Translations under genes and position numbers: made by a program | The notes under the pieces: model-generated | What the model saw: only the letters and a program-made list of their open reading frames with translations | Told to the model about the DNA's origin: nothing | Databases searched by the model: none | In this document: piece after piece, positions 22,764-38,867 of the stretch | Numbering within the stretch: position 1 is the stretch's first letter | How the letters are laid out: each line of letters opens with the position of its first letter | IMG/VR virus record: IMGVR_UViG_3300030372_004928 | Span: 16,497-80,496 of that record | Source: a virus | Lineage: Duplodnaviria > Caudoviricetes | Strand: one strand, 5' to 3' | Length of the DNA: 64,000 nt

Positions 22764-25700
22764 TTAACAATTTTTACCTTTTCTATTTATTAATGGTTTT
22801 GTTGCTTTATTTTCTTCATTAGTTAATATATCACTATTAAAAGGTTTTTTACTAAAATAATGAATACCATTTTCAATTTTTTCATATAATCCTGTATTTC
22901 CTCCTTTATTTACTTTTAAATAAGTTTGTAAATTTTGTAAAGCTTTTACTGTTGCTATATTTCCCGAACCAAAAGTAGGAGAAGTAGTTCCATCTTCATT
23001 TTTTTGTGCTTTTATCATAACTACTCCATTAGCTCGTAATACAGAATATATTTTTCCATAAACACTAGTATTTTTAAATTTACCTTCTTCATTAAAAATA
23101 GAATCATCTACAGTTTTAGCAGTAGTGTAACCCATTATAGTTGGAAATGTAACCATTATTTTATCATTATCAGTAAATTCTGACTTATTAGCTAATTCTC
23201 CAAAAGATTTAGTTAAAAGTTTTAAATCTGTACTTACTATTTCTTCAGTAGCATTTTTTCCTATTTCACTGCCTATAAAACCTGTAGCAGTAGTATACAT
23301 AATTTTATCTGGAGCATTTATATTTTCTAATTCAAGATTATTGTAAGTCATAAAGTTAGCATTAAGATCATTTAAACCAAATTCATTATTTCCTTGAATT
23401 GCAATTTCAAAATCATTTTGACTTCTACTAACTTGATTTTCTTTAATAAAAGATTTTTCACTAGATTCAGTTATATTAATACTACCTAGTTTATCTACAG
23501 GATAAAAATAAGTAGAACCATCTTTTTCTATATATTTTTTATATAAAATATCTTCTTGTTTTATAGATTCATTATTTATTAATAGTGTTTTAGTTCCTAC
23601 TATATAATCAGATTGAACTACTCTTAAATCTTCATTTTGATATTCAGATGTAGTTACTTCTATAAATTCTTTAGTTGCACCCATAATAATGGTTTTCCAA
23701 TCAGGTGTACCATTTATTGTACCTTTTTCACCTAATTCTCTTTTTGTATATACTCTAGGTACAATATCAGTATTAAACCAATTACTTCTTATAAATTTAT
23801 CTTTAATATCTTCATATCTATCTAACAAGAAATTATCCATTTTAGATTTTTCTTTAAGATCATATAAGAATTTATCTAAACCTATTTCTTTAAATACTTC
23901 TGTAGGAATTAATTTACTAAAACTATTTTTATTCATAGTTAAGCCAGTAGTAAAGAAAGAATATTTTACTAAATCTTGAGCTAATGATTTTTCAAATTCA
24001 TCATTAGAATTCCACATTTCAAGAAAAGAATCAATAATAGTATCATCTAATAAAGAATCTGTTTTTGTATTTTGGAATTCTATAAAATGCATAGAATTTT
24101 TCTTTACATCTTTTTCTCCTAATTTGTGAGTTAAATAGTTTAAAATATGAGTATCATTTTGAAGTTTATCTTTAAGTTTATTCTGCATTATTTGTAGTTT
24201 ATTTGCAGTACTTAATTTATTAAAATCTTCAATACTTATATTTATATCTGTTTTAACTTCCAAATTTTCTGCACCTAAAATTCTTTGTTTTGTATTATTA
24301 TTCTCATAATTTTCAGAAAAGAATTCAAATTCATTTTGTAAATAAGTTAAAATATATTGAGATAATTTATCTGCATTTTTTGGATTAAAATGTATACCTG
24401 TATCATTAGTAAAAACTTGTATAAATTTTCTAAACGCTACTGAATGTTGTATAAATAATGGAGATAATATTTCTGTTGCTGCATCAAAAGCTTCTTCTTT
24501 ATAAGCTTTAAGTACAGGATATTTACTATCTTCTCCATAAACTGCTATAGTTGCAGGTACAGTTTCACCATTTACTTTTGCAAAAACTCTAGCATCACTT
24601 TCAACTCTTATAACTGTATCTTCTCTAATTGTTCTTTTTTCTTCTGCAGTTGTTTCTTCTGCTCTTTTTCTTCTTAATAATTCATTAGCAGTCATTATTT
24701 CTCCATTAAACTCTACTCTTGTTTCTCCATCAACTTTTAAATTTCTTAATTGACTAAATTTCATATAGTAAGTAGCTTTCTGTATACTTTTATTAAGCAT
24801 TTCTGGTCTTGTCAACGAAGGTCCAACATCTGTTCTATCTGATGCTGTAGCTTTTATCATATCATCATAACCTTCTCCTGCTTTTTTATATCTTTTAAAC
24901 ATTTCAAGAATTTTAATTTGGTCTTGAAGATACCTAGCTTTTTCTATAGGAGTTAAATTATTATAATTACTAGATACACTATTTTTTATATGATTTTTAA
25001 GTGTATCTACATCAAAAGCAAAAGATTCAGAAGTATCTATATTAAATAAATCTTTTAATTCTGTTGTATCAGGATTTATATCTTCTCCATTACTTATTTG
25101 AGAATCAAATGGTTCAATTACAGCAAATTCTTTTCCGTCTATAGTTAATATTTTTACATAATCTTTTACATTTCTAAGAAAATTATTTTTTGGGTTTCTT
25201 GCAATTTTATATAATTCAGTAATATATCTATTTTTTATTGCTTCAATTTCTTTACCTAAATTTTCATCTTCAGTAAATCCTTGTGTTTCAAAAAATAATT
25301 CACTTAAATCATTTAATATAGGTTGACGAATAAACATACTTGTATATCTAATATCCATACCTGTATTCAACATTGTAATAAATGTATTAAATGTGTATGT
25401 ATTTACATTAGGTGGAAGTCCTTCTTTTACTATATCTAATGTCATTGCTAAAACTTGACTAGCATGAATCATTGTATTGTCTCCATTTACATTTGTAAAT
25501 GTACCATCATTATTCCATCCTAAATTTTTATGTTTAACGGTAACATAATCTTTTTGAGGTTTAGGTTTAGGTTTAGCAGGTTTTGCCATTTTAGGCATAG
25601 AAGGTAAACCTGTGTCTTTAATAGGTTTAACTCTTCTCATAGTTATAGATATTCTATAACTACCTTTAGGATAAGTTTTGCCGTCTATTTCAGTAGTTAT

Positions 25701-28700
25701 TTCAGGTAAAAAGCCATCTACTTTATTTGGTGCAGTTCTATGCCATACTTTTCTATTTTTTCCTTTAATACCAAAAACATAACCATCTCCTGCATTTAAT
25801 TCTGTAACACCTTTACCGACTCTTTCTATTGAAAAATTACCACTACCACCTATATTAACTACTAAAACAGGATAACCTATAGTATCACTTGCTTCACTAA
25901 CATCTTGATGGGAATGTATAAAATGATTTTCACTATATAAATTAATAATAGCACCGTCATAATCACTAGCATCAACTCCTGTAGCTTTTGTCATTAATTC
26001 TTTTAATCTATCATTTACTGGTTCTAATGGCTCGCCATTTATAGATTTATCAAAATAACCAAATTTTGATCTAGTTCCATCCATACCTCTGTCAAGAATA
26101 GTACCTAAATCTATTGGTTCTTTATTTGGATTATTATCTTTATAATCCCATCTTAAACCTAAACCAATCATTACATTAGCATCTTTTCCTTTATTTGTTA
26201 CAGCTCCTTGTCTTTCTAAAATAGGTTTAAGCATTTCAAATAATTCAATTTGTTCTGCTTCTGTAAGTGCATTCCTTTTTACTTCAACTCCATCAATTAT
26301 TTTTTCAGTTTTAATTTTTGAAGGTTGTTTAATTTCATCAGTAACTTGTTCAGCAACTTGTTCAGATTTTGACCATACACCAAGAACATTACCATCTACA
26401 GTTATTTCAGAATAATTATAACCTTTAGCTTCTAGATTTTTATAAAGCCTTTTTTCTCCTTCATTATAATCACTATCATCTATATAATCTTTATTATCAG
26501 CAATAATAGTAGCACCTGCTTCCAAAGCTTTAATAGCTTCTCTTATAGTTTTATCTTGTTGGGTTTTTCTTAAATCAGCTGCACCTCTTTTACCCCCTAT
26601 AGAAACAAATATTACATCATTATCTCCATAATTACCAGTGTTAGCGTATTCTCCTGCTTCTTCTGCATAATGTGCTGTACTGCTATCTTTAATACCTTCA
26701 GCAAAACCTATATATTGTGTAGCAATTTTAGCTTTTGCTTTAGCTTTTTTATCAGCTTTTTTTATAGGAGTGACAGTAAACACATTTTTAGCAGAATCTA
26801 TTTTAGCAACTTCTTCAGTAATTACATCTCCTAATTCTGCTTCTTTCCTCCATAAACCAAATGTTTGTCCATCAATTACTGTTTCTGTATATACTGCACC
26901 TTCTGAATCTAAAAAGTCTCTTAAAGCTTTTTTTGGAGTATAACTTCCTGCTGAATTTAATGTACCTATATTATCAGTAATAATAGCTGCACCAGATTGT
27001 AAAACCTTTTTCAATTCAGCTTTTGTCTTTTTTAATCCTTCTCGAAAATTTCTACTATAAGAAACAAGTACAACATCGTCTTTAGTATAATTTCCACTAT
27101 TTACAACAGATTTATCTTTTATTTGGTCTTGATAAAATCTTGTATTATTATTTCCTGCAGAACCAAATCCTACAAATTTTGTAGATACTGTAGCCATTAA
27201 TGGAGTTTTAGTATCTCTTTTATCTTTACTTACAAATGGTTCTAAAGTAAATACAGTTTGTTTATCTAAATCTTCTGTAGTTTCTGCTTGTATATTTCTT
27301 ACACCAGGTCTAGATTTTTTATTTAAAGTTTCAACATTTTCTTCTCCATATTTTTCTTTTAATTCTTTTTCAGAATAAACTTTAGTTACCCTATTTAACT
27401 TTCCTTCTTTCATTAACTTTTCATTTTCTTTTATCTCTTCTTTAGTTAATGGGGTAGTTCTATAATTTGTATGAAAAGCTAATTCATCTGCTAAAAACAT
27501 TTCAACAACTTGTGCTACACTTAAAAAAGTATTACTATTTGCAGCCATACCTTTTAATGCAATACCAGAAATATTTTGTTTTCTATATTCTAATTGAGCA
27601 TAAGCTGTTGCAGGATTTAAGTGTTCAACTTCTTTTCCTAATAAAGTATTTATTTCATCAATAACATCTGCAGCATCTTCAAAAGATTGAGAAGTTACAA
27701 CTCCACTAAAGTGATCGGGATGTAATAATTTAGCTTTGAAAATATCTAAAATACGATTATCTCTTGCTTTTCTTGTATTAGCTTGTGCTTCAGATAATTT
27801 ATCGTATTCTTTTCTTAATGTTTCTAAATTTTTTGCACCTAATAATGCTTGATATTTTTTACGATTATTTAATGCTTGTTTCTCTTTCTTTTTAACTTCT
27901 TCTACATAAGTATTATATTCTTTAACATCTTTTAAACGTGATATAATAAAGTTTTTAGTTTCTTTAACACTTTTTTCTAATGCAAATGCATTTGCTTGAA
28001 TACTTCTTAATCGTAAATCTTCTTTAGTATTTCTACCCCAATGTTGTAAACCGTATTGATTTTGAACATATTCAATTGTAGCTTTTGCTCTTTCTTTTTG
28101 TACTTCTAGATAATTAAATAATTCATCAATTTCAGTAAAGTTTGTTTGAGCCCCTTCATTAAAAACATCAAATATAGCTTGTAATTGTCTTGTTGTATCT
28201 TCTGCAGTTTCTTGCTTTACTTCATGTAAATTCTGTTGAGTAGTATTAAATCTTTTTACTTGTGTATTTAACTTTTTAGCTTCTTGGTCTGGATTATCTT
28301 TTAAATTTTCAAGTAATTTTTTTGCTGCTCTAGATTCTAACCAAGCAGTAAATCCTTCTTCTCCTTTTTCATAATAATCATTTTTTTGATAAGTTCTTTT
28401 ACCATCTATATCTGTAGTAGTAAAACTATGATACATAATATATTCCTTATCAACATCAAAGTCAAATCCTTTAGCAGTAACATATTCTTGAGGTAGAACA
28501 ATTGTACTTCCACTTTCTACAGGCAGAAATCCTACAACTTTAAATACAGTAAACATATAATCTTGTTCTGAAGGAATTCTATAAGAAATCATAGTTCTTA
28601 ATTCTTCAGGTATATTGTTTATATCATCAAGTACATATTCTCCTTTTTCATTTTTAACATAAAACTGTTTACTCCATGCAGGTAAAAGTGCTTCAGCAGT

Positions 28701-31700
28701 AACAACTTTACCATCTTTAGAAGTAGACATTTGTAGTTTAGAATTTTTTCTTTTCTTAACATCATCGTGCCATATAATTCCTCCATCATCTTTAAAATCC
28801 TCATCTCCTTTTACTTCAGCATTTAAAAATACACTACTTAAAAGTACTCCACTTCCACCAGGTACTTTTTGATTTACAACTCTATCTGTAAATAAACTTG
28901 TTAAAATAGCTTGCCATTTTTTAGTCATATTACTCATAAATAAAGGAAGATTAAAATTACCTTCTGCATCTAATTCAATTGCTTCAAGATAATTTTCAGC
29001 TAACAACTTTCTATTTACTTCATTTATTAATATATCACTAAGTTTACTATAATCAGTTATTACAAATTCATTATTTTCATCTATTTCTACTCCAATATCT
29101 TCTCTTAATGTTGCACCATCTTCAACAATATTTTGAATCATAACATCCATATAATGTTTAATATATTCATCTCTTGTATATTCAGTTCCAGCTACATTAT
29201 AAACATTTCCTTTAGGGAGGTTTCCAATAATAATTTTAGCTATTTGTGTACCTAACTTATTTTTACTATCCATCATATGGTCAGGTACATCTAATTGTAA
29301 TTTCCAATTACTTTGTTTGTATTCTTTAAATACATATCCTTTTTCAAGTGTAAATTGGTTTAATTTATCTTCTACAAGGTTGCCATTAGCGTCAGTAACA
29401 TCCATGGCATATTCTTTTCCTGTTTTTTCTGCAGATTCAAATTGTACCTCATCTATTTCATTTTTTTCCATCCAATTAGAAATAGTTTCTAATTGAGTAT
29501 TTTTTATTAATTGAGGTATAAGAACAATAGTACTATATTTTACTTGTGTACTTACATGTCTTTTAAGATTAGGATTAAATTCTCTACCATAATAAAATCC
29601 TTTAAAAGGTTGAATAAATAACTCTAATTCATTTCTTTTTAAAGGTTGACCTTTTTTTACTTTATCAAATAATCTTTCATATGTAGAATTCCATCTACCG
29701 TAATCTTTGAGAATATTTTCTGCTCTTGCAATAGTTATATACCCTTGACCATCTGCAACATTTGTTTCTAAATAACCTTTTGTTATTTTATGAACAGCTA
29801 TCTCAAGAGCATTCATTTTAGTATAATTAGGTTTAGTCTTATTAACTTTATTTATATCTACAGTTTGATTTCCGTATTTATTAGGTTGACTTTTTTGTAA
29901 TGATTTAGCTACATTTTCTACAATATTTTCATAATTTTCAGATTTAAGTTCTATGTCTTTTAATGTTGCAGCTGTATAAAACTCTCCTGTATAGTTATTA
30001 GCACCTGCATTACCTGGTGAATGCGGTCCTTTTGCTCTTTTATTTACATTTTTAGAAGGATATAATTCTTCTTTTTTTGTTCCAAATTCAGCTTGATTTC
30101 CTACTATATAATTAAATTGTTCGACATTACTAATGTAATTATTTAACATAAATTCTGCTATAAAATTATCAAAACCATTATCATCTTTTGTAGCATAATC
30201 GTTAAATCTTACAGATTGAGTATATACTTTTTCAGTATGTCCATAAACTTCTTTACCTCTTTGAATTTGTTGTGCAATAAATTCATTTATTTTTTCATAA
30301 ACAGAATTATTTATTTGTTGTATTGCATTTTGACTTTTATATACATCTGCAAAATACATCCCATCTATAAAAAGTTTATCTATTTGATTTATAGAAGGAA
30401 TATTTTGGAATTTAAACACATCTCCTGTCGGTTCTCCTTTTTCATTAAGTAATTTAGGTAATAAAATTCCTGCTTCTTTTGAATATTCAAGCTCTTTCCA
30501 ATAATAGTTTTCTTCTAATTTTGTATAATCTAAATGTATATCTCCATCAAATTCAGGGTCTCCACGAAATTTATGTTCTTTTGGTTTAAAAGTTCCTTTC
30601 TTTTTATCTACAATAAATAATAAATCTCTTGCTGCTTTCATTCTCTGCATTTCTTGAGAAACAGTATTTTTTATAGCTATAAATAAAGGATTTTCTATTA
30701 CTTGATCATGTTCATTTTTTATATATCTAGGTACTGTACCGTTTTGTACTCCTTCAAAAATAGGACTATTTATAAAATGAATATTACCAGAATCAGAAGG
30801 AATAGGCATTGATATTTTTGAGAAACCATTTTTATATCCTTCCAAATACATTAATACTTGGGTCATTTGCCATGCTTTATCAGGCATATCTCTATACTGA
30901 TAACCTTCTTTAGTTTGTGTGTTTTTAACACCCCCTTGTCTTGAATATCTCCAATTTTTTAGAAATTCATCAATTAATTCTGTAGTCTTGAATTGATTAT
31001 CTATTGGAAATAACCAATTACTATATTGCATTGCAGGGTCTTGTGCATATTGTTGTAATAATTGTAATAATTGTTCTTTAGCTTTACTAGAAGTATGATA
31101 CATAGGATTAGATGCTGCTTCTACTAATCCAAAAAATTCACTTAAAAAACTTGGATTTACTGTTCCATAAACATTATTACCATTTACATCAAAATAACTA
31201 GATTCAATTAAATCGTATTGAAAAACATTTACTTGTTCAGCTACATCATTTAATCTATTAATTGATTGTTCTTCAATTAAAATTTCCTCAATTTTTTCTT
31301 TCCTTTCTAAATAATCTTTTTCAGTTAATTTTTCTTTTTGTGCTTCTAAAGTATTTAATTCTATATTTTTATTTTTAAGTTGACTTAAAATAGGTCTAAT
31401 TATAAACTCTAAATTACTTTTGAAAACATTATTATAGAAATCTACTTTAGATTTATTATTCCTTAATCCAACAGGATTTGATAAAACTTTTTCTATCATT
31501 TCTTTTGTTAAAGGAATTCCTAATGCATTAAATGCTTTTTCTGTAGCTTCAACTACTTTATCATTATTTCTCCATGATTTAGAATTATATAAACCATTTT
31601 TTTTACTTTGTATAATTTTTATATAATCATATAGTATTTTTTCTAATTTATCTAAAGTTAATTCTCCAGAATTTAATTTTGAATTAATATTAGATTGCCA

Positions 31701-34700
31701 TTTTTCTGCAAGAATATAATGACTAATATTTTTATTTGCACTATCTAATTTAATTCCATCAGTGCTATATAATATTACATCAACATTAGGTCTAGCTTTT
31801 TTAAATTGTGAAACCCAAGCAGATTTAAATAAAGGATCAGTTTGTAATTTATTTAATAACTCTTGAAAAGCAGGATTATGTTTTCTCATTAATTCCAATC
31901 TTGCACTCATTTCATTGAAATCTAATGAACCTACCATATTCCTTTGAATGTAAGGATAAACTTTATTAAAATCTAGAAAAACAGGTAGACCTAAAAATGT
32001 ATCTTTAGAATCAAAGCTTTCAGTAGTCATTATTTCTCCTTTCACAAAATTACTTACAGTATCTTTTTGTGAAGTTCCAAATATTAAAGAATCATCCCAT
32101 TCTTTTTTTAATTCAGTAGATTTCTCTAAATTAACTAATTCTTTATTTACTTCAATTCCAAATTGTCTATTGACATAGTTTACAGTTTTATCATACAATT
32201 CATTATAAATTGCATAATTATTTCTTTGGTCAAGTACTTTTTCTATATTTTGTCTTTTTTGAGATTTTCCTTCAGCTCTTTTTTCTGATTCATACTGACG
32301 TAATTTCTTTTTAATAAATTCTCTAGGAGATTTACTAGGATTATTTGCTATATCTTCTAATGTTAAATTAGGATTTTGTTTTCTATAAGTTATTAATTCT
32401 CTAGCTAATAAATTTATAACTTCACTTTGTTCCCCTCTTGTCAGACCACCTACTGGTTTTTTATACCTAGTTAATTTCTTAGCAAATTCAACCATTTGTT
32501 CATCTGGTTTGAAATTGAATTTACCCGAATCAATATCTTCAAATAATTTATCTAATTTAGAAACATCTTTTTTAGTAAAGAAATTAACAATCAAATCTCT
32601 CAATTTAGCAAAGAATCCTTTTACTTTTTTAGATACTTTTTTAGTTGCACCTTTTTTCAGCATATAATCCATGAAATCATCAGCCATTAATTCTTCTAAA
32701 GAAAGATTAGTTCTATTGCCGTATTTTTTTCTTCCTTCTTGATATAGTTCTTTTCTTTGTTCTTCAGTTGTATATAACCAAAAAACAACGTGAAAAGCTT
32801 CATGATATGCTGTACCTTTTGGAGCATCAATACTTAAACGAACCATTGCTTCACTAAATAAACCCCAAGCATCTGGCCCTTTAGTTTTTATTAAGCCTAC
32901 TATATTAGTGTCTAATTCTATATTATCTCCAAAAACTTTTTTCCACCATTTTTTAACTTCTTCTATATTTTCTTTTTCTTTTACTTCTTCAACTGTTTCT
33001 GTTGCTATTTTTTTTCTTCTAAAACTAGAAGTTATACTCATTTCTACTTTACCTTCTTGATTAGTAGTTTTAACAACATCACCCCAATATCTTTCTTCAA
33101 GAAATCTGTCTAATTCTGTAGCAATATCCCAGTTATCTACAACAACTTTTTGATTAGCAAGAAGATTATCTGCTAATCTTTGAATATCTGCATCTACTTC
33201 TGTATCATCTGCATCTGTTTCTTCTGTATCAACTTCTTCTTCTGTATCATCTTTAGTGTCTGTTTCTGTTTTTTCTTCAAATAAAGGTTTACCTTCTTGA
33301 CCATGAAAATATAAATCATCACTAATACTTATAATTAAATGACTATTTTTTCTTTTACCTGCATTTTTATTAGTTACAGAAGGCAAAGGATAACCATTTT
33401 TATCAGTAACAATTTCTCCTTTTTCATTTTCTTTAGTAGGAGGTTTTCTTAAATATCTTAAATCAGTTAATAACATATCAGAACTTAATAAATAATTAAA
33501 ATAATTATTGTAGTCCATTTCGCCATCGTTATAAACTTCGTTATGTTTTTCTAAAGCTTTAAGATTAATATTATGCTTTTTTTGTTGTAATGCTTTTTTT
33601 ATAACATCTTCAATGATTTCTTTTCTACCTTCTAATTCTTCAGATTCTTTATTATATAAAGATAAAGTATTAGGTTTTTTCGAAACAGATTCAAAAGGTA
33701 CGATATTTCCATCTTTATCTGTAACTTGAATATTTAAAACTTTTTTAGTTGAATCAGTTGTTTTAGGTGCTGTTATATAAATAGTTAATGTATCTCCATC
33801 ACCATAACTGAACTGCATTTTATTATCAAATATCTTAAAACTATTATCTCCTATATTATCAACTTTTGCATCTAAATTTACATTTAAAATTGTACCAAGA
33901 GTTTCTTTTAATTTTATAAAATCTTTATCCTTTTTTAAGGTACTCCATTCTGTTCCTTGAAATTCTCTTAATTTATCTGCTAATTCAAAAATTAAATTTG
34001 TAGCTCTTTGTGATATAGCTTCAGATAGTGTATTTATATCTAATGGTACAGGAATATATGTATTTAATTCTCCTGGTATTGAATTTGCACCTTTAACAAG
34101 TATATATAATTTACCAAAATCATATTTTTCATCATGATTAAAAAATGCTCCTGTATCTGCATTTCTTGTAAATTTTTGTCCATCGTAATTAACTAATTGA
34201 GTTTCAGATGCACTTTTTGGGTCTAAATAAAATATATTATTAAGATTAATTTGAGCATTAGGAGGTAATCCTTCATTTAATTGTTCATTTAAAGATTCAA
34301 ATTCTCCTACTTGAAGTAAATTACCACTTGTTTTTCTTGTGACTCTAGTACGTAAATCACTTATAACAGCTGGAGAATAATTGTGTTGTTTAAATACATT
34401 TGTTATTTTCTTTACAGTTTGTAATTGTTTTTCTAATAAGTAAATATGTGAAATAAAAGGTTTATTTATTTCATTACCTTCTAATTCATCTATTCTCCAT
34501 TGAATTAGTTTTCTTTGTGCTTCAGTTACTTTAGGTTCTTCAAGTCCTTTGTTTAATCTATCAATGTCTGTTATTTCATTAATTTGTTTTGCAAAATTTA
34601 AATCCTTTTGTATAGATTTAACAGAATTTAAAGAACCTAAAACAACCTCTTCTCTAACACCAGAACCTTGTGGACTTATATACTTAATCATTATTCTATA

Positions 34701-37700
34701 ATCTCCACCTTTTATTTCATAAACAAAAAACCTTAATTCTGTATCAACTCCAATGTCAGGACTTAATAACCACTTTAATTGTTTTTCTAATTTGTCTTGA
34801 GTCATTTTTGGTGTAAAGCCGTATAATCTTTTCATTTCAGCTTTATAATGATTAACATCTATAACTCCATCGGGTGTAATACCTATTAAACTATTAATCC
34901 AAATATTATTAGAATTCAGTACATTTTCTCCACCATAAATACTATCAAAAAATTCTTCTGCAGTTTCTTCTCTATTTTCTGGTTTAAGGTTGTTATCCTT
35001 TATATATTTTTCAACATCTTTTACTAAGACATTACCATTTTTACCTGTAGGTGTAATTAAATTTTCATCTATATTATATCCTTGACCTTTTAATGTATCT
35101 ATTAAATTTTTGGCAGATTGTGTTGGAGTAAAGTTAGGTGCAGTATTTTTAACAGCTGCAGCTTGATTAGAGATAAACCAATCTTTTAATACATTTAATT
35201 TATTTTTAATAAGTAATTCTTTAATAGCATTAGCTACTTCATTTTGAGTAGTATAAATAGCATTAAAGAATATACTATCAGCCAGTAGATAGGAAATTAA
35301 CTCTTCGGGATAACCTGTAGGATTTTTAGATTCTTTTCTTAATAAATCTATAATAGATTGAACATGTGCTTTATTTTCTAAACTAGTATCAGCATCTTGT
35401 AATAATGCTATAATTTCTCTTAATTCTTTATTAAATTCTTCTCTACTTTCAGGTATAGTATCTCCTTCAAAATAAGGAATTGCTTTATGTAATTCTATAT
35501 GAATTAATTCATGTTCTAATAATTCAACTAAAGCAGCATAAGGTTTATTTTTAGTTAAATAAGAAGCTAAAATTACAATTTCTTTATTAACAGCATCAAA
35601 AGCAGCAGGATTCTTTTTTGATACAAGTTTAGAATCTTTAGCTAAAGTTATATTTAACTTATAACCCGATGAATGTAATAATCTTGCTAACTCTTTTGTT
35701 CTTTTATTTACTCCTGTAATAGTTACAAGAGCTTCCATTAAGCTTGTAACTTCCTTAATATCTGGAAATACATCTTTTATTTTTAAATCAGTATAGTGAG
35801 GAGATTCTTCAGTTATTTCAGTAATTCTGCCTAATTCTGCTGCTTCTTGAACTCTTTGAAAAGGTAAATATAAATTTACACCTGCTCGTTCAATTACAAC
35901 AAATTTATCCCCATTAGCATTTTCATATATTTCTATTATTTCAACAACCTCATTATTTGAATCTTTATATTTTGCTCCTACTTTAATATAACCTAATTCT
36001 GTATAGGTTTGAGTAGTAATAAGATTATTTAATAGAAAAATTTTATTATTTAATAACTGTACTGTATTAGGGTATTCTTTTTGTGCTTCTTTTAATTTTT
36101 GTAATTGTGCAATTTTTTCTTCAATATCAAGTTTTGTATTCTTTAAAATTTTATTTATTCTATTTATAAAATTTCTAAAAACATTTTTTTGTTCTTTAGC
36201 TATAGCAAGTTCAGCATCTTTCGTTAAAGCTACTTGTTCTAATAATTCTGCAGGAGTTTTAGAAGAATCTTCTATAGTTTTATTATAAGATACAGTATCA
36301 TCTTCTGGATCACTATCATCATCTTGTTCATCCTCTTCAAGCAATTCTTTTGTTTCTATACTTTTTTTAATTGCTTCAATTTGATTTTCTAAATACTTGT
36401 ATGTTTTAGAATCTTTTTCTTTAGTTTCTAATTCTGATTCTAAATAAGCTAACGCTCCTTGTAAATCATTCTTTTTAACAAGTTTATCTACTTCAGCTTT
36501 TACCTCAGTTTCATAAGCATTTAATTCTATAAGTTCTTCAGCTTCTTTTACTAAATTATTAAATTTAGTTCTAGTATCATGTAATTTTTGTGCTCCTTTA
36601 TCTGTTAAGAATTCTTCAGATTGTGCTTTTATTTGATATAAATCAACTTCACTTTCAACCATTTTATCAAAATGTTCCTCAAGTGTTTTAACTAAAGTAT
36701 CATCTTTTGACGCTTTAGTTAATTTTTTCGCAATAGCTTTATTTGATTTAGATTGTTCTGAATTTGAATCTTTAAATTCAGGATATAATGCATCTATTTC
36801 TTCTACTTTCTCTAAAGCAAAATCTAACCCTCTTTGTGCATTTTCTTCTTTATATTTATTGTTTCCTTTTTTTGCTTGTTCTTTTATTTTTTTTAATCTT
36901 TCAATCATACTTAAATATGCATTTCTTTCCCAAAAACTTTTAAGAGAAGGATTTGCTGCAAGTACTTTATCTACAAAAACATTATTACTTAAATCTGCCC
37001 AATTTAATTCTCCCTTAGCAATATCATCTAAAATTTTAGTTATTGAACCGTCATTACTTACAAGTTCTTTTAAAATTGTTGCTTTTGTATCTTCAGAGTT
37101 ATCTCCATCAATATCTAAATTCATTACTCTTCCGTAATGTTTATTAAAAGATTTTTCTGCAGCTAATACTTCTTCTTTTGTTTTAGCAATAGCTTTATCA
37201 ATGCTGCCCATCCCTTGTTCCTTAATTTCTTCAGTAGTCATACTATTGAGAATATCTTGCTTAAATTGCCCATTCTCTAATTGCTCTAAAAGAACATTTG
37301 TAGAACGATTAGCTGCTGCAAAAAATCCCATACTTGTACCCATTTGATTTTTCTTAGCATTAATTAAAATTTCTCCTTCTTCTTTAGTCATCTCTCCATC
37401 AGCTATTTTAGTTTGTACATCTTTTAGAAATTTAACATATTTAGTTGTTTCTTTTTCTCTATAAGCAATAGTCTCTAATTGTGCTTTTGCTGTATCTTTA
37501 GCATCACTTCCTGTAAAAGCAGTATTAATTCCTTCAAATGCAATACCTCCTAATGCTCCCCAAAAAGCTACTTCACTTAAATGAGGGTCTTGTAAATATT
37601 CTCCTAATCTTTGACTAAATGTACTATCATCTTCTCCTAATAATTGTTTAGCTAAAACATGACCTTCTTTTTCCCCAATAAAGTTTATCATCTCCTCTAA

Positions 37701-38867
37701 ACCTTCTGTACTTTGTCTTGCCAAAACACCTGCTGCATTTGATACTTTTGTAAATTTTGAATTAGCTATATCATCTAATTTCTGTTGTGCTTGTTTTTGT
37801 GCTTCAGCTGATAATCCTGTTTTTCTTTTATCTGCTAATTTTGATTTTACTTTTCCAGATTTTACTTTACTTCTTGTAATTCCTGTACCTTTTAATAAAG
37901 CACCTGCTTGAATAAAATCAAATATTATATTTGAAAAGTTAACATTATATGACCTCCATCCTGCTCTACTAGCTATATGTTCAGCAAGATTTTTTTTAGT
38001 TACTTCAAGACCTCTTTCTCTTAATTCATCTGCTGCTTCTGATTCTTGTGCTTCTGCCCACTTTTCTTCATCTTGAAATGTTTGTGATAATTCTTGATTA
38101 ACATCATTTACTACACCAAATGATTCTCTAGTATTTTCAGCATGTCGCATTACAAGAGCACTCACACCTGCTTTTGTAATATTCTTACCAATTTGCCCCA
38201 TATTAGCACCTGTTTGAAGAAAATTACCCAATTTCCCTCCTGTAGATTTACCTAATTTAGTAGAAATTTTATTTAACCAAGACATACCAGACATAGTTGC
38301 TTTAGCAGGTACTAACATACTTGCTGCACTTGCTACTGATACAGCATTTGAAGCCCACCAACCAAAATCTCCTACATCCCAAGCTTGATTTGGATTTTCT
38401 CTATAAATAGGAGTAGCATCTCTTGTCCATTCTATTAAATCATTTCCTAAAGAAATAACTCCATTATTGAAATCACTTGTTTCTCCTGCAGCTTTTTCGT
38501 AAATAAGAGTAGGAATTTCAAATATAGAACCTATAGCACTTATTGTACCTCCTACTACTTCCCCTAAAAGAGCTTGATTAGCAAATGCACCTACTTGTTC
38601 TTGCCACGATTGATTTACTGCTCTAGCTTTTCTTAACTTTTCTTCTCCTTGTTCAAGTCTAACTTGATTCATATAATCTCCATACTCACTGACATTAATA
38701 TCTGAAACAATAGTCTCTGCTAATTGTAATTTAGGTTGTTTATCAGGGTCTTTTATTTTATCCCAATTTTTTAATCCACCTGTATCTTCTTGTTTTTCTT
38801 CTACAGGATTAGTATTATTTTTTGATTTTTCTAATTCTTCAGGAGAAACTAAATCGTGATGTGACAT
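22764..38867 (-). CDS. Giant virion-associated RNA polymerase polyprotein (crAss-type two-barrel RNAP), 5367 aa
   Basis: Catalytic DFDVD loop (28449-28463) preceded by YRIP; two zincin-like motifs HELIH (35499-35513) and HEAFH (32790-32804); position within the cargo gene cluster. Confidence 0.9.
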   Translation of the reverse strand: MSHHDLVSPEELEKSKNNTNPVEEKQEDTGGLKNWDKIKDPDKQPKLQLAETIVSDINVSEYGDYMNQVRLEQGEEKLRKARAVNQSWQEQVGAFANQALLGEVVGGTISAIGSIFEIPTLIYEKAAGETSDFNNGVISLGNDLIEWTRDATPIYRENPNQAWDVGDFGWWASNAVSVASAASMLVPAKATMSGMSWLNKISTKLGKSTGGKLGNFLQTGANMGQIGKNITKAGVSALVMRHAENTRESFGVVNDVNQELSQTFQDEEKWAEAQESEAADELRERGLEVTKKNLAEHIASRAGWRSYNVNFSNIIFDFIQAGALLKGTGITRSKVKSGKVKSKLADKRKTGLSAEAQKQAQQKLDDIANSKFTKVSNAAGVLARQSTEGLEEMINFIGEKEGHVLAKQLLGEDDSTFSQRLGEYLQDPHLSEVAFWGALGGIAFEGINTAFTGSDAKDTAKAQLETIAYREKETTKYVKFLKDVQTKIADGEMTKEEGEILINAKKNQMGTSMGFFAAANRSTNVLLEQLENGQFKQDILNSMTTEEIKEQGMGSIDKAIAKTKEEVLAAEKSFNKHYGRVMNLDIDGDNSEDTKATILKELVSNDGSITKILDDIAKGELNWADLSNNVFVDKVLAANPSLKSFWERNAYLSMIERLKKIKEQAKKGNNKYKEENAQRGLDFALEKVEEIDALYPEFKDSNSEQSKSNKAIAKKLTKASKDDTLVKTLEEHFDKMVESEVDLYQIKAQSEEFLTDKGAQKLHDTRTKFNNLVKEAEELIELNAYETEVKAEVDKLVKKNDLQGALAYLESELETKEKDSKTYKYLENQIEAIKKSIETKELLEEDEQDDDSDPEDDTVSYNKTIEDSSKTPAELLEQVALTKDAELAIAKEQKNVFRNFINRINKILKNTKLDIEEKIAQLQKLKEAQKEYPNTVQLLNNKIFLLNNLITTQTYTELGYIKVGAKYKDSNNEVVEIIEIYENANGDKFVVIERAGVNLYLPFQRVQEAAELGRITEITEESPHYTDLKIKDVFPDIKEVTSLMEALVTITGVNKRTKELARLLHSSGYKLNITLAKDSKLVSKKNPAAFDAVNKEIVILASYLTKNKPYAALVELLEHELIHIELHKAIPYFEGDTIPESREEFNKELREIIALLQDADTSLENKAHVQSIIDLLRKESKNPTGYPEELISYLLADSIFFNAIYTTQNEVANAIKELLIKNKLNVLKDWFISNQAAAVKNTAPNFTPTQSAKNLIDTLKGQGYNIDENLITPTGKNGNVLVKDVEKYIKDNNLKPENREETAEEFFDSIYGGENVLNSNNIWINSLIGITPDGVIDVNHYKAEMKRLYGFTPKMTQDKLEKQLKWLLSPDIGVDTELRFFVYEIKGGDYRIMIKYISPQGSGVREEVVLGSLNSVKSIQKDLNFAKQINEITDIDRLNKGLEEPKVTEAQRKLIQWRIDELEGNEINKPFISHIYLLEKQLQTVKKITNVFKQHNYSPAVISDLRTRVTRKTSGNLLQVGEFESLNEQLNEGLPPNAQINLNNIFYLDPKSASETQLVNYDGQKFTRNADTGAFFNHDEKYDFGKLYILVKGANSIPGELNTYIPVPLDINTLSEAISQRATNLIFELADKLREFQGTEWSTLKKDKDFIKLKETLGTILNVNLDAKVDNIGDNSFKIFDNKMQFSYGDGDTLTIYITAPKTTDSTKKVLNIQVTDKDGNIVPFESVSKKPNTLSLYNKESEELEGRKEIIEDVIKKALQQKKHNINLKALEKHNEVYNDGEMDYNNYFNYLLSSDMLLTDLRYLRKPPTKENEKGEIVTDKNGYPLPSVTNKNAGKRKNSHLIISISDDLYFHGQEGKPLFEEKTETDTKDDTEEEVDTEETDADDTEVDADIQRLADNLLANQKVVVDNWDIATELDRFLEERYWGDVVKTTNQEGKVEMSITSSFRRKKIATETVEEVKEKENIEEVKKWWKKVFGDNIELDTNIVGLIKTKGPDAWGLFSEAMVRLSIDAPKGTAYHEAFHVVFWLYTTEEQRKELYQEGRKKYGNRTNLSLEELMADDFMDYMLKKGATKKVSKKVKGFFAKLRDLIVNFFTKKDVSKLDKLFEDIDSGKFNFKPDEQMVEFAKKLTRYKKPVGGLTRGEQSEVINLLARELITYRKQNPNLTLEDIANNPSKSPREFIKKKLRQYESEKRAEGKSQKRQNIEKVLDQRNNYAIYNELYDKTVNYVNRQFGIEVNKELVNLEKSTELKKEWDDSLIFGTSQKDTVSNFVKGEIMTTESFDSKDTFLGLPVFLDFNKVYPYIQRNMVGSLDFNEMSARLELMRKHNPAFQELLNKLQTDPLFKSAWVSQFKKARPNVDVILYSTDGIKLDSANKNISHYILAEKWQSNINSKLNSGELTLDKLEKILYDYIKIIQSKKNGLYNSKSWRNNDKVVEATEKAFNALGIPLTKEMIEKVLSNPVGLRNNKSKVDFYNNVFKSNLEFIIRPILSQLKNKNIELNTLEAQKEKLTEKDYLERKEKIEEILIEEQSINRLNDVAEQVNVFQYDLIESSYFDVNGNNVYGTVNPSFLSEFFGLVEAASNPMYHTSSKAKEQLLQLLQQYAQDPAMQYSNWLFPIDNQFKTTELIDEFLKNWRYSRQGGVKNTQTKEGYQYRDMPDKAWQMTQVLMYLEGYKNGFSKISMPIPSDSGNIHFINSPIFEGVQNGTVPRYIKNEHDQVIENPLFIAIKNTVSQEMQRMKAARDLLFIVDKKKGTFKPKEHKFRGDPEFDGDIHLDYTKLEENYYWKELEYSKEAGILLPKLLNEKGEPTGDVFKFQNIPSINQIDKLFIDGMYFADVYKSQNAIQQINNSVYEKINEFIAQQIQRGKEVYGHTEKVYTQSVRFNDYATKDDNGFDNFIAEFMLNNYISNVEQFNYIVGNQAEFGTKKEELYPSKNVNKRAKGPHSPGNAGANNYTGEFYTAATLKDIELKSENYENIVENVAKSLQKSQPNKYGNQTVDINKVNKTKPNYTKMNALEIAVHKITKGYLETNVADGQGYITIARAENILKDYGRWNSTYERLFDKVKKGQPLKRNELELFIQPFKGFYYGREFNPNLKRHVSTQVKYSTIVLIPQLIKNTQLETISNWMEKNEIDEVQFESAEKTGKEYAMDVTDANGNLVEDKLNQFTLEKGYVFKEYKQSNWKLQLDVPDHMMDSKNKLGTQIAKIIIGNLPKGNVYNVAGTEYTRDEYIKHYMDVMIQNIVEDGATLREDIGVEIDENNEFVITDYSKLSDILINEVNRKLLAENYLEAIELDAEGNFNLPLFMSNMTKKWQAILTSLFTDRVVNQKVPGGSGVLLSSVFLNAEVKGDEDFKDDGGIIWHDDVKKRKNSKLQMSTSKDGKVVTAEALLPAWSKQFYVKNEKGEYVLDDINNIPEELRTMISYRIPSEQDYMFTVFKVVGFLPVESGSTIVLPQEYVTAKGFDFDVDKEYIMYHSFTTTDIDGKRTYQKNDYYEKGEEGFTAWLESRAAKKLLENLKDNPDQEAKKLNTQVKRFNTTQQNLHEVKQETAEDTTRQLQAIFDVFNEGAQTNFTEIDELFNYLEVQKERAKATIEYVQNQYGLQHWGRNTKEDLRLRSIQANAFALEKSVKETKNFIISRLKDVKEYNTYVEEVKKKEKQALNNRKKYQALLGAKNLETLRKEYDKLSEAQANTRKARDNRILDIFKAKLLHPDHFSGVVTSQSFEDAADVIDEINTLLGKEVEHLNPATAYAQLEYRKQNISGIALKGMAANSNTFLSVAQVVEMFLADELAFHTNYRTTPLTKEEIKENEKLMKEGKLNRVTKVYSEKELKEKYGEENVETLNKKSRPGVRNIQAETTEDLDKQTVFTLEPFVSKDKRDTKTPLMATVSTKFVGFGSAGNNNTRFYQDQIKDKSVVNSGNYTKDDVVLVSYSRNFREGLKKTKAELKKVLQSGAAIITDNIGTLNSAGSYTPKKALRDFLDSEGAVYTETVIDGQTFGLWRKEAELGDVITEEVAKIDSAKNVFTVTPIKKADKKAKAKAKIATQYIGFAEGIKDSSTAHYAEEAGEYANTGNYGDNDVIFVSIGGKRGAADLRKTQQDKTIREAIKALEAGATIIADNKDYIDDSDYNEGEKRLYKNLEAKGYNYSEITVDGNVLGVWSKSEQVAEQVTDEIKQPSKIKTEKIIDGVEVKRNALTEAEQIELFEMLKPILERQGAVTNKGKDANVMIGLGLRWDYKDNNPNKEPIDLGTILDRGMDGTRSKFGYFDKSINGEPLEPVNDRLKELMTKATGVDASDYDGAIINLYSENHFIHSHQDVSEASDTIGYPVLVVNIGGSGNFSIERVGKGVTELNAGDGYVFGIKGKNRKVWHRTAPNKVDGFLPEITTEIDGKTYPKGSYRISITMRRVKPIKDTGLPSMPKMAKPAKPKPKPQKDYVTVKHKNLGWNNDGTFTNVNGDNTMIHASQVLAMTLDIVKEGLPPNVNTYTFNTFITMLNTGMDIRYTSMFIRQPILNDLSELFFETQGFTEDENLGKEIEAIKNRYITELYKIARNPKNNFLRNVKDYVKILTIDGKEFAVIEPFDSQISNGEDINPDTTELKDLFNIDTSESFAFDVDTLKNHIKNSVSSNYNNLTPIEKARYLQDQIKILEMFKRYKKAGEGYDDMIKATASDRTDVGPSLTRPEMLNKSIQKATYYMKFSQLRNLKVDGETRVEFNGEIMTANELLRRKRAEETTAEEKRTIREDTVIRVESDARVFAKVNGETVPATIAVYGEDSKYPVLKAYKEEAFDAATEILSPLFIQHSVAFRKFIQVFTNDTGIHFNPKNADKLSQYILTYLQNEFEFFSENYENNNTKQRILGAENLEVKTDINISIEDFNKLSTANKLQIMQNKLKDKLQNDTHILNYLTHKLGEKDVKKNSMHFIEFQNTKTDSLLDDTIIDSFLEMWNSNDEFEKSLAQDLVKYSFFTTGLTMNKNSFSKLIPTEVFKEIGLDKFLYDLKEKSKMDNFLLDRYEDIKDKFIRSNWFNTDIVPRVYTKRELGEKGTINGTPDWKTIIMGATKEFIEVTTSEYQNEDLRVVQSDYIVGTKTLLINNESIKQEDILYKKYIEKDGSTYFYPVDKLGSINITESSEKSFIKENQVSRSQNDFEIAIQGNNEFGLNDLNANFMTYNNLELENINAPDKIMYTTATGFIGSEIGKNATEEIVSTDLKLLTKSFGELANKSEFTDNDKIMVTFPTIMGYTTAKTVDDSIFNEEGKFKNTSVYGKIYSVLRANGVVMIKAQKNEDGTTSPTFGSGNIATVKALQNLQTYLKVNKGGNTGLYEKIENGIHYFSKKPFNSDILTNEENKATKPLINRKGKNC

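What the first reader, a model, noticed from the sequence alone, without database searches (positions are those of the whole stretch)
25630..26290. Intact-looking AlkB-type 2OG-Fe(II) dioxygenase fused inside a phage RNAP
Seen: IINLY...HSHQD (HxD at 25902-25910), VVNIGGSGNF, LNAGDGYVFG, WHR (His at 25740-25742) and RISITMR, plus an upstream GYF...EPLEP segment. This is the order and spacing of AlkB-family motifs (N-x-Y, HxD, H, R-x5-R). Established: AlkB enzymes oxidatively demethylate damaged or modified DNA/RNA, and AlkB domains occur in replicase polyproteins of some plant RNA viruses. Inference: a transcription-coupled demethylase that repairs the incoming template or transcripts, or erases or installs a base modification relevant to host defence.
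Basis: partly seen in the sequence, partly recalled or inferred. Interest (0 to 1): 0.78.

Follow-up and report, generated by a model that had tools for sequence, protein, structure and literature searches.

The report
AlkB demethylase cassette inside crAss-type polymerase
A marine crAss-like phage carries a complete AlkB-type DNA/RNA dealkylating enzyme inside the giant RNA polymerase that such phages inject with their DNA. It sits at a site where related phages hold other modules, so the phage probably delivers a base-repair or base-erasing activity at the first moment of infection.

Summary
Residues 4190-4412 of a 5,367-residue ORF (window 22764-38867, minus strand) are a genuine AlkB-family 2OG/Fe(II) dioxygenase.
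- Pfam PF13532 scores 45 bits against a cut-off of 31.
- The AlphaFold model has pLDDT 95, and its best structural match is E. coli AlkB.
- Metal, 2-oxoglutarate and base-stacking residues are invariant across 207 relatives.

The ORF is a crAss-type virion RNA polymerase (phi14:2 gp66, E 9e-33, DFDVD motif).

The AlkB domain lies in a 586-residue cassette made of two copies of an unassigned alpha/beta domain followed by AlkB. The cassette is inserted at one point of the polymerase chain. At that point the closest relatives carry 5-245 residues of unrelated sequence, and crAss002 and crAssphage carry almost nothing.

None of the 119 other listed polymerase-core relatives has AlkB. Yet 151 more distant giant proteins carry an AlkB domain 28-67% identical to this one (most about 45-67%), and 140 of them have a crAss polymerase core. 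The module therefore appears to have moved horizontally.

Function is inferred, not shown. The likely role is oxidative dealkylation of single-stranded template DNA or early RNA after injection, as repair or as counter-defence.

I found no paper describing this fusion. This scan has met it on other DNA before (e1-5347233, e1-3285656). What is new here is the internal hot-spot insertion and the lineage-specific acquisition.

The parts
22764..38867 (-). Giant ORF of 5,367 aa: a crAss-type virion RNA polymerase polyprotein that hosts the cassette
   Evidence: Single open frame. Six 99.2-99.9% identical copies occur in Tara, ENA and JGI assemblies, all aligning end to end apart from one copy that lacks the first 392 residues.
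27306..31217 (-). Conserved RNAP region on the N-terminal side of the insertion (aa 2551-3854), including the two-barrel core
   Evidence: phmmer against phi14:2 gp66 (6VR4) gives E 9.2e-33 over aa 3026-3486. BLASTP aligns it to crAss002 gp33 residues 575-1808. It is collinear with the nearest relatives up to aa 3854-3856.
28449..28463 (-). Catalytic DFDVD motif (aa 3469-3473)
   Evidence: It aligns with DFDID of gp66. The motif is described in bioRxiv 10.1101/2020.03.07.982082.
25548..27305 (-). Inserted cassette (aa 3855-4440, 586 aa): linker, rep1, rep2, AlkB, K/P-rich linker
   Evidence: The flanks are adjacent in crAssphage gp44 and 5 aa apart in crAss002 gp33. The nearest relatives have 5-245 aa of unrelated sequence at this site.
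26802..27275 (-). rep1: first copy of an unassigned alpha/beta domain (aa 3865-4022)
   Evidence: 29% identical to rep2, E 6e-16. No Pfam family matched.
26322..26792 (-). rep2: second copy of the unassigned alpha/beta domain (aa 4026-4182)
   Evidence: Homologues of about 67% identity exist. The AF2 model has pLDDT 87. No convincing solved-structure match was found: Foldseek E >= 3e-3, VIA best Z 5.5, profile search against PDB empty.
25632..26300 (-). AlkB-family 2OG/Fe(II) dioxygenase domain (aa 4190-4412)
   Evidence: PF13532 at 45.4 bits. A profile search of the PDB returns only AlkB/ALKBH chains. The AF2 model has pLDDT 95 and pTM 0.92. The Foldseek top hit is E. coli AlkB 3khc, E 1e-11, TM 0.77.
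25902..25910 (-). H4320-Q-D4322, the first two metal ligands (HxD)
   Evidence: Invariant in 207 aligned domains. They align to AlkB H131 and D133.
25740..25742 (-). H4376, the distal metal ligand. R4372 lies four residues upstream, as in AlkB's SRLFYH
   Evidence: Invariant in 207 aligned domains. It aligns to AlkB H187.
25635..25655 (-). R4405-x5-R4411, the 2-oxoglutarate-binding arginines (RISITMR)
   Evidence: R4411 and T4409 are invariant and R4405 is present in 90%. The segment aligns to the LTFR end of OsALKBH1.
22767..25547 (-). Polymerase chain resuming after the cassette (aa 4441-5367)
   Evidence: BLASTP aligns a segment reported as aa 4392-4998 to crAss002 gp33 residues 1813-2355. 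tblastn matches crAssphage gp44 immediately adjacent to the pre-insertion match. It is collinear with P0283-P0289 from aa 4436-4441 onwards.

Best explanation
The stretch encodes a catalytically competent AlkB-family Fe(II)/2-oxoglutarate dioxygenase. It is the last module of a 586-residue cassette (two copies of an unassigned alpha/beta domain, then AlkB). The cassette was inserted horizontally into a variable site in the C-terminal half of a crAss-type virion RNA polymerase.

By homology with phi14:2 gp66 and the crAss001 RNAP cargo proteins, the giant protein is packed in the virion and ejected into the host partly unfolded. There it refolds and transcribes the early genes, probably from single-stranded template.

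Inferred mechanism:
- Once refolded in an oxic host cytoplasm, the tethered AlkB domain binds Fe(II) and 2-oxoglutarate.
- It flips out an N-alkylated base (of the 1-methyladenine or 3-methylcytosine type) from single-stranded template DNA or nascent RNA.
- It hydroxylates the alkyl group, which leaves as an aldehyde.
- This removes polymerase-blocking lesions or adducts from the incoming genome or first transcripts before any phage gene is expressed.

Shown here: family membership, fold, conserved active site, location of the insertion, the swap site, and horizontal acquisition. Inferred: virion delivery, enzymatic activity, substrate, and benefit.

The confidence of 0.55 is for the whole statement, including the repair-type mechanism. 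The identity and anatomy alone I put at about 0.9.
For: Identity
- PF13532 scores above the gathering cut-off.
- A profile of the clade hits only AlkB-family chains in the PDB: OsALKBH1 5e-14, E. coli AlkB 1.3e-8, ALKBH3/2 about 1e-3, ALKBH8 0.025.
- The AF2 model has pLDDT 95. Its top 24 Foldseek hits are E. coli AlkB apart from OsALKBH1 at rank 17, with TM up to 0.78, followed by ALKBH2 and ALKBH3.

Active site
- N4309, Y4311, H4320, D4322, E4325, R4372, H4376, T4409 and R4411 are invariant in 207 domains sharing only about 30-67% identity.
- So are the lid and stacking residues M4233 and W4240.

Host protein
- gp66 homology includes the DFDVD motif.
- tblastn finds about 140 crAss-like RNAP genes.

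Insertion
- crAss002 residues 1808 and 1813 flank it.
- In crAssphage gp44 the flanking matches abut.

Swap site and horizontal origin
- Six nearest relatives are collinear except at this point, where they hold 5-245 unrelated residues.
- None of the other 119 listed core relatives has PF13532.
- AlkB-bearing giants have cores at most 29% identical to this one, yet mostly AlkB domains 45-67% identical.

Selection on the fusion
- 140 of 151 AlkB-bearing giants carry the crAss core.

Mechanistic fit
- gp66 transcribes ssDNA and denatured DNA but not dsDNA, and is a virion protein (bioRxiv 10.1101/2020.03.07.982082).
- crAss001 RNAP proteins are ejected cargo (PMC10172136).
- AlkB domains embedded in plant RNA-virus replicases repair m1A and m3C (PMC2553587).

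Not an artefact
- Six near-identical copies come from independent assemblies.
Against: - No activity, substrate or virion proteomics exist for this phage.
- The domain is not an orthologue of E. coli AlkB: TIGR00568 scores 23.6 bits against a cut-off of 231.
- The residue aligned with AlkB D135, which reads the exocyclic amine of m1A and m3C, is Ser here and Thr in the clade consensus. Substrate preference may therefore differ.
- A sporadic, horizontally moving module at a swap site, often alongside NADAR, ART-PolyVal or helicase modules in other giants, looks more like arms-race equipment than housekeeping repair.
- The position of AlkB within the giant proteins varies: upstream of the core in 13 cases and downstream in 127. 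That argues against a fixed geometric coupling to the polymerase channels.
- I could not measure the metal-site geometry in the model.
Confidence: 0.55

Rival explanations
1. Counter-defence eraser. The AlkB module is one of a set of interchangeable anti-immunity payloads on the injected polymerase. Its job would be to strip a host-inflicted base adduct or methyl mark from phage DNA or RNA, or to strip protective marks from host nucleic acid. Environmental lesion repair would not be its role. It would parallel NADAR or Macro modules that reverse ADP-ribosylation of DNA bases.
For: - It sits at a hot spot where close relatives carry unrelated modules.
- It was acquired horizontally and is absent from the other 119 listed core relatives.
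- In other giants the same AlkB clade co-occurs with PF08719 (YbiA/NADAR), PF18760 (ART-PolyVal), SF1 helicase and RNase H modules.
- A giant-virus NADAR protein also contains an AlkB-like fold (rank 24).
- A distant stand-alone relative lies beside Tpt1-type (PTS_2-RNA) and AAA_33 kinase genes.
- Iyer et al. argued that sporadic phage AlkB-like enzymes reset methyl marks rather than repair damage (PMC7824862).
- Earlier scan reports reached the same reading on other DNA.
Against: - To my knowledge no bacterial defence is known that N-alkylates phage nucleic acid in a way AlkB would reverse.
- No DNA methyltransferase family (PF01555, PF02086, PF00145) is found in this phage, so it has no self-mark of its own to manage.
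- Conservation of the AlkB-type lid and stacking residues fits classical lesion substrates equally well.
Confidence: 0.3
2. Host-takeover enzyme. The injected AlkB acts on host substrates, for example by demethylating host tRNA, rRNA or mRNA, or by hydroxylating a host protein. This would reprogramme the cell and would not protect phage nucleic acid.
For: - Some AlkB homologues act on tRNA or mRNA; ALKBH8 is among the profile hits.
- Polyvalent injected proteins commonly carry host-modifying enzymes such as ARTs (PMC5512222).
- A weak E3-binding-like segment in the same protein hints at contact with host metabolism.
Against: - The closest structural and profile matches are nucleic-acid repair enzymes (E. 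coli AlkB, ALKBH2, ALKBH3), not ALKBH8.
- Nothing here points to a specific host target.
Confidence: 0.1
3. Decayed or purely structural passenger. The domain is an inactive remnant that merely pads the polymerase or serves as a nucleic-acid-binding handle.
For: - The variable position within the giant proteins shows that the polymerase tolerates arbitrary inserts.
- F4269 replaces the Tyr found in 97% of the clade.
Against: - All metal, 2OG and stacking residues are invariant over 207 divergent sequences.
- The model is very confident.
- The cassette has the phage's own extreme codon bias, GC3 0.067 against 0.081 +/- 0.012 for the ORF, so it has been kept for a long time.
Confidence: 0.03

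Closest known systems
E. coli AlkB and the ALKBH2/ALKBH3/OsALKBH1 group (PDB 3khc, 2fd8, 3s57, 2iuw, 5xeg)
   Same: - Double-stranded beta-helix fold with an N-terminal nucleotide-recognition lid.
- HxD...H triad, NxY, R-4-H and Rx5R with the same spacing.
- Equivalents of W69 and Y76/Y78.
- Best structural (TM 0.77) and profile matches.
   Different: - About 17% identity, and far below the TIGR00568 equivalog cut-off.
- The D135 equivalent is Ser/Thr.
- It is not a free 24-kDa enzyme. It is an internal module of a 5,367-aa virion protein.
- The clade is very narrow: 207 clusters among 1.84 billion representatives.
AlkB domains embedded in replicase polyproteins of plant RNA viruses (Flexiviridae and others; PMC2553587, PMC544882)
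   Same: - An AlkB module is inserted in-frame in a viral polymerase polyprotein.
- Its distribution is sporadic and suggests horizontal acquisition.
- The plant-virus domains were shown to remove m1A and m3C from RNA and ssDNA.
- They are structurally similar (ranks 25-48).
   Different: - Those are RNA viruses of eukaryotes with RdRp replicases made after entry.
- Here the carrier is a two-barrel DNA-dependent RNAP of a dsDNA phage that is pre-made and injected.
- No sequence-level relation beyond family membership was found.
crAss-type virion RNA polymerase, Cellulophaga phage phi14:2 gp66 (PDB 6VR4) and crAss001/crAss002/crAssphage RNAP proteins
   Same: - Homologous two-barrel core with DFDxD (E 9e-33).
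- Collinear with crAss002 gp33 on both sides of the cassette.
- The gene lies in the structural and cargo block next to the capsid genes.
   Different: - gp66 is 2,180 aa and carries no AlkB.
- No record in the 50,697-record GenBank phage set has this AlkB domain.
- This protein is 5,367 aa and has extra N-terminal regions with two HExxH motifs.
Polyvalent proteins of phages and conjugative elements (Iyer et al. 2017, PMC5512222)
   Same: - A giant, probably injected protein strings together several enzymatic modules.
- Modules are shuffled between relatives at linkers.
   Different: - AlkB/2OGFeDO domains are not mentioned in that paper (0 occurrences).
- Here the scaffold is the crAss two-barrel RNAP, not MuF, Zn-peptidase or N4-type scaffolds.
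Stand-alone AlkB-like 2OGFeDO of jumbo phages and giant viruses (PMC7824862; BFVD hits)
   Same: Viral AlkB-family enzymes with sporadic distribution, proposed to reset methyl marks or repair damage.
   Different: They are free proteins expressed after infection. They are not fused to a virion polymerase.

Membership tests
AlkB family (Pfam 2OG-FeII_Oxy_2, PF13532) | Family HMM score above the curated gathering cut-off | tested here: met
   45.4 bits against 31.2, E 1.4e-11. A six-frame genome search gave 43.7 bits.
AlkB family (Pfam 2OG-FeII_Oxy_2, PF13532) | HxD...H facial triad for Fe(II) | tested here: met
   H4320, D4322 and H4376 are present, are invariant in 207 relatives, and align to AlkB H131, D133 and H187. 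The 3D convergence of the three side chains was not measured.
AlkB family (Pfam 2OG-FeII_Oxy_2, PF13532) | 2-oxoglutarate-binding NxY and Rx5R motifs | tested here: met
   N4309 and Y4311 are invariant. R4405 is present in 90% and R4411 in 100% of relatives. T4409 is invariant.
AlkB family (Pfam 2OG-FeII_Oxy_2, PF13532) | Double-stranded beta-helix fold with a nucleotide-recognition lid, most similar to AlkB/ALKBH structures | tested here: met
   The AF2 model has pLDDT 95 and pTM 0.92. The Foldseek top hits are E. coli AlkB, E 1e-11, TM 0.73-0.78, then OsALKBH1, ALKBH2 and ALKBH3. The lid residues M4233, W4240 and Y4271 are conserved.
AlkB family (Pfam 2OG-FeII_Oxy_2, PF13532) | Fe(II)/2OG-dependent oxidative dealkylation of nucleic-acid bases | not testable with these tools
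   This needs a biochemical assay.
E. coli-type AlkB orthologues (NCBIfam TIGR00568 equivalog) | Score above the equivalog cut-off | tested here: not met
   23.6 bits against a cut-off of 231. It is a distant, separate clade, not an AlkB orthologue.
crAss-type two-barrel virion RNA polymerase (phi14:2 gp66 family) | Sequence homology to the gp66 core, including the DFDxD catalytic motif | tested here: met
   E 9.2e-33 to 6VR4, with DFDVD aligned to DFDID. About 140 crAss-like RNAP genes were hit by tblastn.
crAss-type two-barrel virion RNA polymerase (phi14:2 gp66 family) | Packaged in the virion and ejected into the host | not testable with these tools
   Inferred from gp66, from crAss001 proteomics, and from the gene's place in the structural block.
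Polyvalent proteins (Iyer et al. 2017) | Several unrelated enzymatic or effector modules in one giant delivered protein, with module turnover between relatives | tested here: met
   RNAP plus AlkB plus two unassigned domains in one chain. The same site holds unrelated inserts in P0283, P0284 and P0285, and almost nothing in P0286, P0288 and P0289. Other AlkB-bearing giants add NADAR, helicase, RNase H and ART modules.
   No Pfam family matched and a profile search of the PDB found nothing. The fold search gave only generic Rossmann-like matches at Z <= 5.5, and the listed matches included no SLOG protein.

The most novel reading that the evidence does not exclude
The AlkB cassette is the antidote to a bacterial immune mechanism that has not been recognised yet. 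That mechanism would N-alkylate (methylate) incoming single-stranded phage DNA or early transcripts, by analogy with DarT ADP-ribosylation of ssDNA reversed by NADAR or Macro domains.

On this reading, crAss-type phages of oxic habitats inject the eraser pre-made on their polymerase. The unassigned alpha/beta domain that often sits next to AlkB would be its specificity or adduct-processing partner.
Probability: 0.15. Interest if true: 0.85.

Novelty: new variant of a known kind. Interest (0 to 1): 0.55.

Why it matters
If the domain is active, it would be a direct-reversal nucleic-acid repair or erasure enzyme that a dsDNA virus brings into the cell ready-made, tethered to the first enzyme that reads the genome.

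That gives a testable answer to how phages cope with base lesions or adducts on DNA that has sat unrepaired in a particle, or that is attacked on entry.

It also extends the AlkB-in-polymerase-polyprotein arrangement, known from plant RNA viruses, to phages.

The mapped swap site in the polymerase is a natural place to look for further payloads. These include the conserved unassigned domain found beside AlkB.

At least 140 clusters of giant proteins carrying the fusion are in the public protein collections searched here, so it is a recurrent, unannotated feature of environmental crAss-like phages.

Tried and rejected
- phmmer of the single domain against PDB sequences found no AlkB. A profile of the clade was needed.
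- tblastn of the domain against 50,697 GenBank phage records gave no match.
- A pattern scan of IMG/VR with the single sequence gave no confirmed locus.
- PHROGs found nothing for any part of the giant protein.
- NCBIfam gave only a sub-threshold TIGR00568 hit.
- The repeat domain stayed unassigned. Pfam gave noise only, alone and as an alignment. A profile search of the PDB was empty. Foldseek gave E >= 3e-3 with TM 0.25-0.35. VIA wide gave Z <= 5.5 to class-I methyltransferases and HAD phosphatases, which is within the range expected for generic folds. The SLOG reading is therefore neither supported nor excluded.
- The ESM Atlas look-ups and the atlas fold library were unavailable.
- By eye, the inserts of the nearest relatives looked ASCH-like (P0284) and SLOG/YpsA-like (P0285). 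Pfam and PDB sequence searches of P0284 gave nothing there, so these remain impressions only.
- The idea of a recent foreign origin visible in base composition is rejected. The cassette's GC3 lies within the ORF's range.
- Phage-encoded DNA methyltransferases as partners: none of PF01555, PF02086 or PF00145 is in the 80.5-kb genome.
- Assembly chimera is rejected, given six independent near-identical copies.
- I could not read the model's coordinates, so I did not measure metal-site distances.

Full report
**What is in the sequence**

The flagged stretch lies on the minus strand inside one open reading frame, 22764..38867, of 5,367 codons. The DNA is 27% G+C with about 8% GC3.
- IINLY at aa 4307.
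- H4320-Q-D4322 at nt 25902-25910.
- H4376 at nt 25740-25742.
- RISITMR at aa 4405-4411.

The window is 64 kb of an 80,496-bp IMG/VR virus record that CheckV rates complete. It is a distant crAss-like phage. Its major capsid protein matches PHROG 11589 (E 2e-97) and is about 36% identical to crAssphage capsid proteins.

**The domain is a real AlkB-family enzyme**

- Pfam 2OG-FeII_Oxy_2 scores 45.4 bits against a cut-off of 31.2.
- A profile built from 31 relatives hits only AlkB-family chains among 177,635 distinct PDB sequences. These are OsALKBH1 (5e-14), E. coli AlkB (1.3e-8), ALKBH3 and ALKBH2 (about 1e-3) and ALKBH8 (0.025).
- In that alignment the HQDxxE segment and the R-x3-H segment line up with AlkB H131/D133/E136 and R183/H187.
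- The AlphaFold2 model is very confident (pLDDT 95, pTM 0.92).
- Its best Foldseek matches in the PDB are E. coli AlkB structures (E 1e-11, target-normalised TM 0.73-0.78), then OsALKBH1, ALKBH2 and ALKBH3.
- In the viral structure library the matches are giant-virus AlkB proteins, a marine phage oxidoreductase, and the AlkB domains of plant RNA-virus replicases.

I aligned 207 domains (the query plus 206 relatives at about 30-67% identity). The following are invariant:
- Metal ligands: H4320, D4322, H4376.
- 2-oxoglutarate residues: N4309, Y4311, R4411, T4409. R4405 is present in 90%.
- R4372 and E4325.
- Lid and base-stacking residues M4233 and W4240.

This pattern is what purifying selection on catalysis and on a flipped-base substrate would give.

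The domain is not an orthologue of E. coli AlkB. TIGR00568 gives 23.6 bits against a cut-off of 231. The clade is also narrow: only 207 of 1.84 billion cluster representatives match at E <= 1e-3, and the longer, complete ones are mostly giant proteins. The residue aligned with AlkB D135 is Ser here, so substrate preference may differ from that of AlkB.

**The carrier is a crAss-type virion RNA polymerase, and the domain is internal to it**

- Residues 3026-3486 match phi14:2 gp66 (PDB 6VR4) at E 9e-33, with DFDVD (aa 3469-3473) on the catalytic DFDID.
- tblastn finds about 140 annotated crAss-like RNAP genes.
- BLASTP against crAss002 gp33 aligns our 2551-3785 with its 575-1808, and a segment reported as our 4392-4998 with its 1813-2355.
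- In crAssphage gp44 the two flanking matches abut.

So about 590-650 residues are inserted at a single point.

By distance from the catalytic motif, that point lies roughly 100 residues beyond the trigger loop of gp66. The gp66 numbering comes from bioRxiv 10.1101/2020.03.07.982082. This mapping is approximate and inferred.

**The insertion is a three-module cassette at a swap site**

The inserted 586 residues (aa 3855-4440) are arranged as follows:
- A short linker.
- Two tandem copies of a domain of about 155 residues (29% identical to each other, E 6e-16).
- The AlkB domain.
- A Lys/Pro-rich linker.

The six nearest full-length relatives of the polymerase are P0283, P0284, P0285, P0286, P0288 and P0289, with cores 46-61% identical. 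They are collinear with it from end to end except at this point. There they carry 129, 133, 245, 25, 5 and 25 residues respectively. The three longer inserts are unrelated to ours and have no Pfam match.

The repeat domain has homologues at about 67% identity and a confident alpha/beta model (pLDDT 87). It has no Pfam family and no convincing solved-structure relative. It carries ten invariant columns, most of them polar.

In the giant proteins I collected, the repeat domain occurs in 22. Of those, 17 also carry AlkB, and in 12 it directly abuts AlkB, in either order. That sample is biased towards AlkB carriers, so this link is only suggestive.

**The module was acquired horizontally and recurs in many crAss-type polymerases**

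- Searching giant proteins with the polymerase core found 351 relatives. Among the best 120 (cores 26-61% identical) only the window's own protein carries PF13532.
- Searching with the AlkB domain found 116 giant proteins. With the all-length search, I collected 151 giants carrying this AlkB clade.
- Their AlkB domains are 28-67% identical to ours (most about 45-67%), but their polymerase cores are at most 29% identical.
- Of the 151, 140 contain a recognisable crAss core. AlkB lies downstream of it in 127 (median 1,011 residues after the core) and upstream in 13.
- Many also carry YbiA/NADAR, SF1 helicase, RNase H or ART-PolyVal modules.
- The cassette has the phage's own extreme codon bias, so the acquisition is not recent.
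- Six copies at 99.2-99.9% identity come from Tara, ENA and JGI assemblies and all contain the cassette. This excludes an assembly chimera and points to a marine origin.

**How it most likely works**

Published knowledge:
- gp66 is a virion protein that transcribes single-stranded and denatured DNA efficiently but not duplex DNA.
- The RNAP-associated proteins of crAss001 are capsid cargo, thought to be ejected partly unfolded and to refold in the cytoplasm (PMC10172136).
- AlkB enzymes remove N-alkyl lesions such as m1A and m3C. AlkB domains embedded in plant-virus replicases do so on RNA and ssDNA (PMC2553587).

Inference: after injection the refolded domain loads Fe(II) and 2-oxoglutarate. 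It then clears blocking N-alkyl bases from single-stranded template, or from the first transcripts, before any phage gene has been expressed.

The main rival is that it is a counter-defence eraser. That reading is favoured by its swap-site location, its horizontal mobility and its company in other giants. It is weakened because, to my knowledge, no host system is known that makes an AlkB-reversible adduct.

The phage encodes no recognisable DNA methyltransferase, so management of its own marks is unlikely.

One ecological point from general knowledge: the enzyme needs O2. The domain is absent from the GenBank phage set, which holds the gut crAss-like phages of anaerobes, and present in ocean metagenomes. 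I could not tabulate habitats for most hits.

**Comparison with what is known, and novelty**

- Polyvalent injected proteins are known, but the founding survey does not mention AlkB or any dioxygenase (PMC5512222).
- Stand-alone AlkB-like genes are noted as sporadic in jumbo phages (PMC7824862).
- No paper in the searchable library links crAss-like phages with AlkB in any meaningful way.
- The closest analogue is the plant RNA-virus arrangement.

Within this scan the fusion has been reported before on other DNA (e1-5347233, e1-3285656, and first-reader notes e1-5843371 and e1-5832584). There it was a C-terminal payload tail. Here it is an internal insertion at a mapped hot spot, and it is unique within this polymerase lineage.

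I rate it a new variant of known kinds: an AlkB family member and a polyvalent virion polymerase. It is of moderate interest, and function has yet to be shown.

Noticed in passing
window 26322-27275 (-), aa 3865-4182: A domain of about 155 aa is tandemly duplicated immediately upstream of AlkB. It has ten invariant columns, most of them polar, and a YNEGEKRL motif. It has no Pfam family and no convincing solved-structure relative. In other giant polymerases it often abuts AlkB, in either order.
   Followed up: partly
window 35010-35078 (-), aa 1264-1286: A weak match to the E3-binding (peripheral-subunit-binding) domain, 13.8 bits, E 0.07. The same segment nearly reaches the cut-off in relative P0284 (23.3 against 23.7 bits) and is pre-annotated as PF02817 in several relatives. 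A PSBD-like element therefore seems conserved in this polymerase lineage.
   Followed up: partly
window 35499-35513 and 32790-32804 (-), aa 1119 and 2022: Two HExxH motifs (HELIH and HEAFH) lie in the N-terminal 2,500 residues. Relative P0284 gives a weak SprT-like zincin hit (E 0.0012) near the first. They may be metallopeptidase modules that could process the giant protein.
   Followed up: no
P0283 aa 2296-2425; P0284 aa 3960-4093; P0285 aa 3983-4228: The nearest relatives hold different, unassigned modules at exactly the site where this phage holds the AlkB cassette. By eye they look ASCH-like (P0284) and SLOG/YpsA-like (P0285). The Pfam and PDB sequence searches run on P0283 and P0284 found nothing there.
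   Followed up: partly
whole ORF 22764-38867: Third-position G+C is only about 8% across the 5,367 codons. This is an extreme AT bias and implies a very AT-rich host.
   Followed up: no
L006:2977-3777 and neighbours: A stand-alone 266-aa distant relative of this AlkB clade sits in a short contig beside a Tpt1-type RNA 2'-phosphotransferase (PTS_2-RNA), an AAA_33 kinase and a nucleoside deoxyribosyltransferase-like gene. This neighbourhood has the flavour of nucleic-acid repair. Another relative (L005) follows a sigma-70 gene.
   Followed up: no
window 22767-23330 (-), aa 5180-5367: The C-terminal domain resembles the repeat domain only faintly (pairwise E 0.006). It is conserved in the nearest relatives, so it is part of the lineage's own C-terminus and not of the cassette.
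   Followed up: partly
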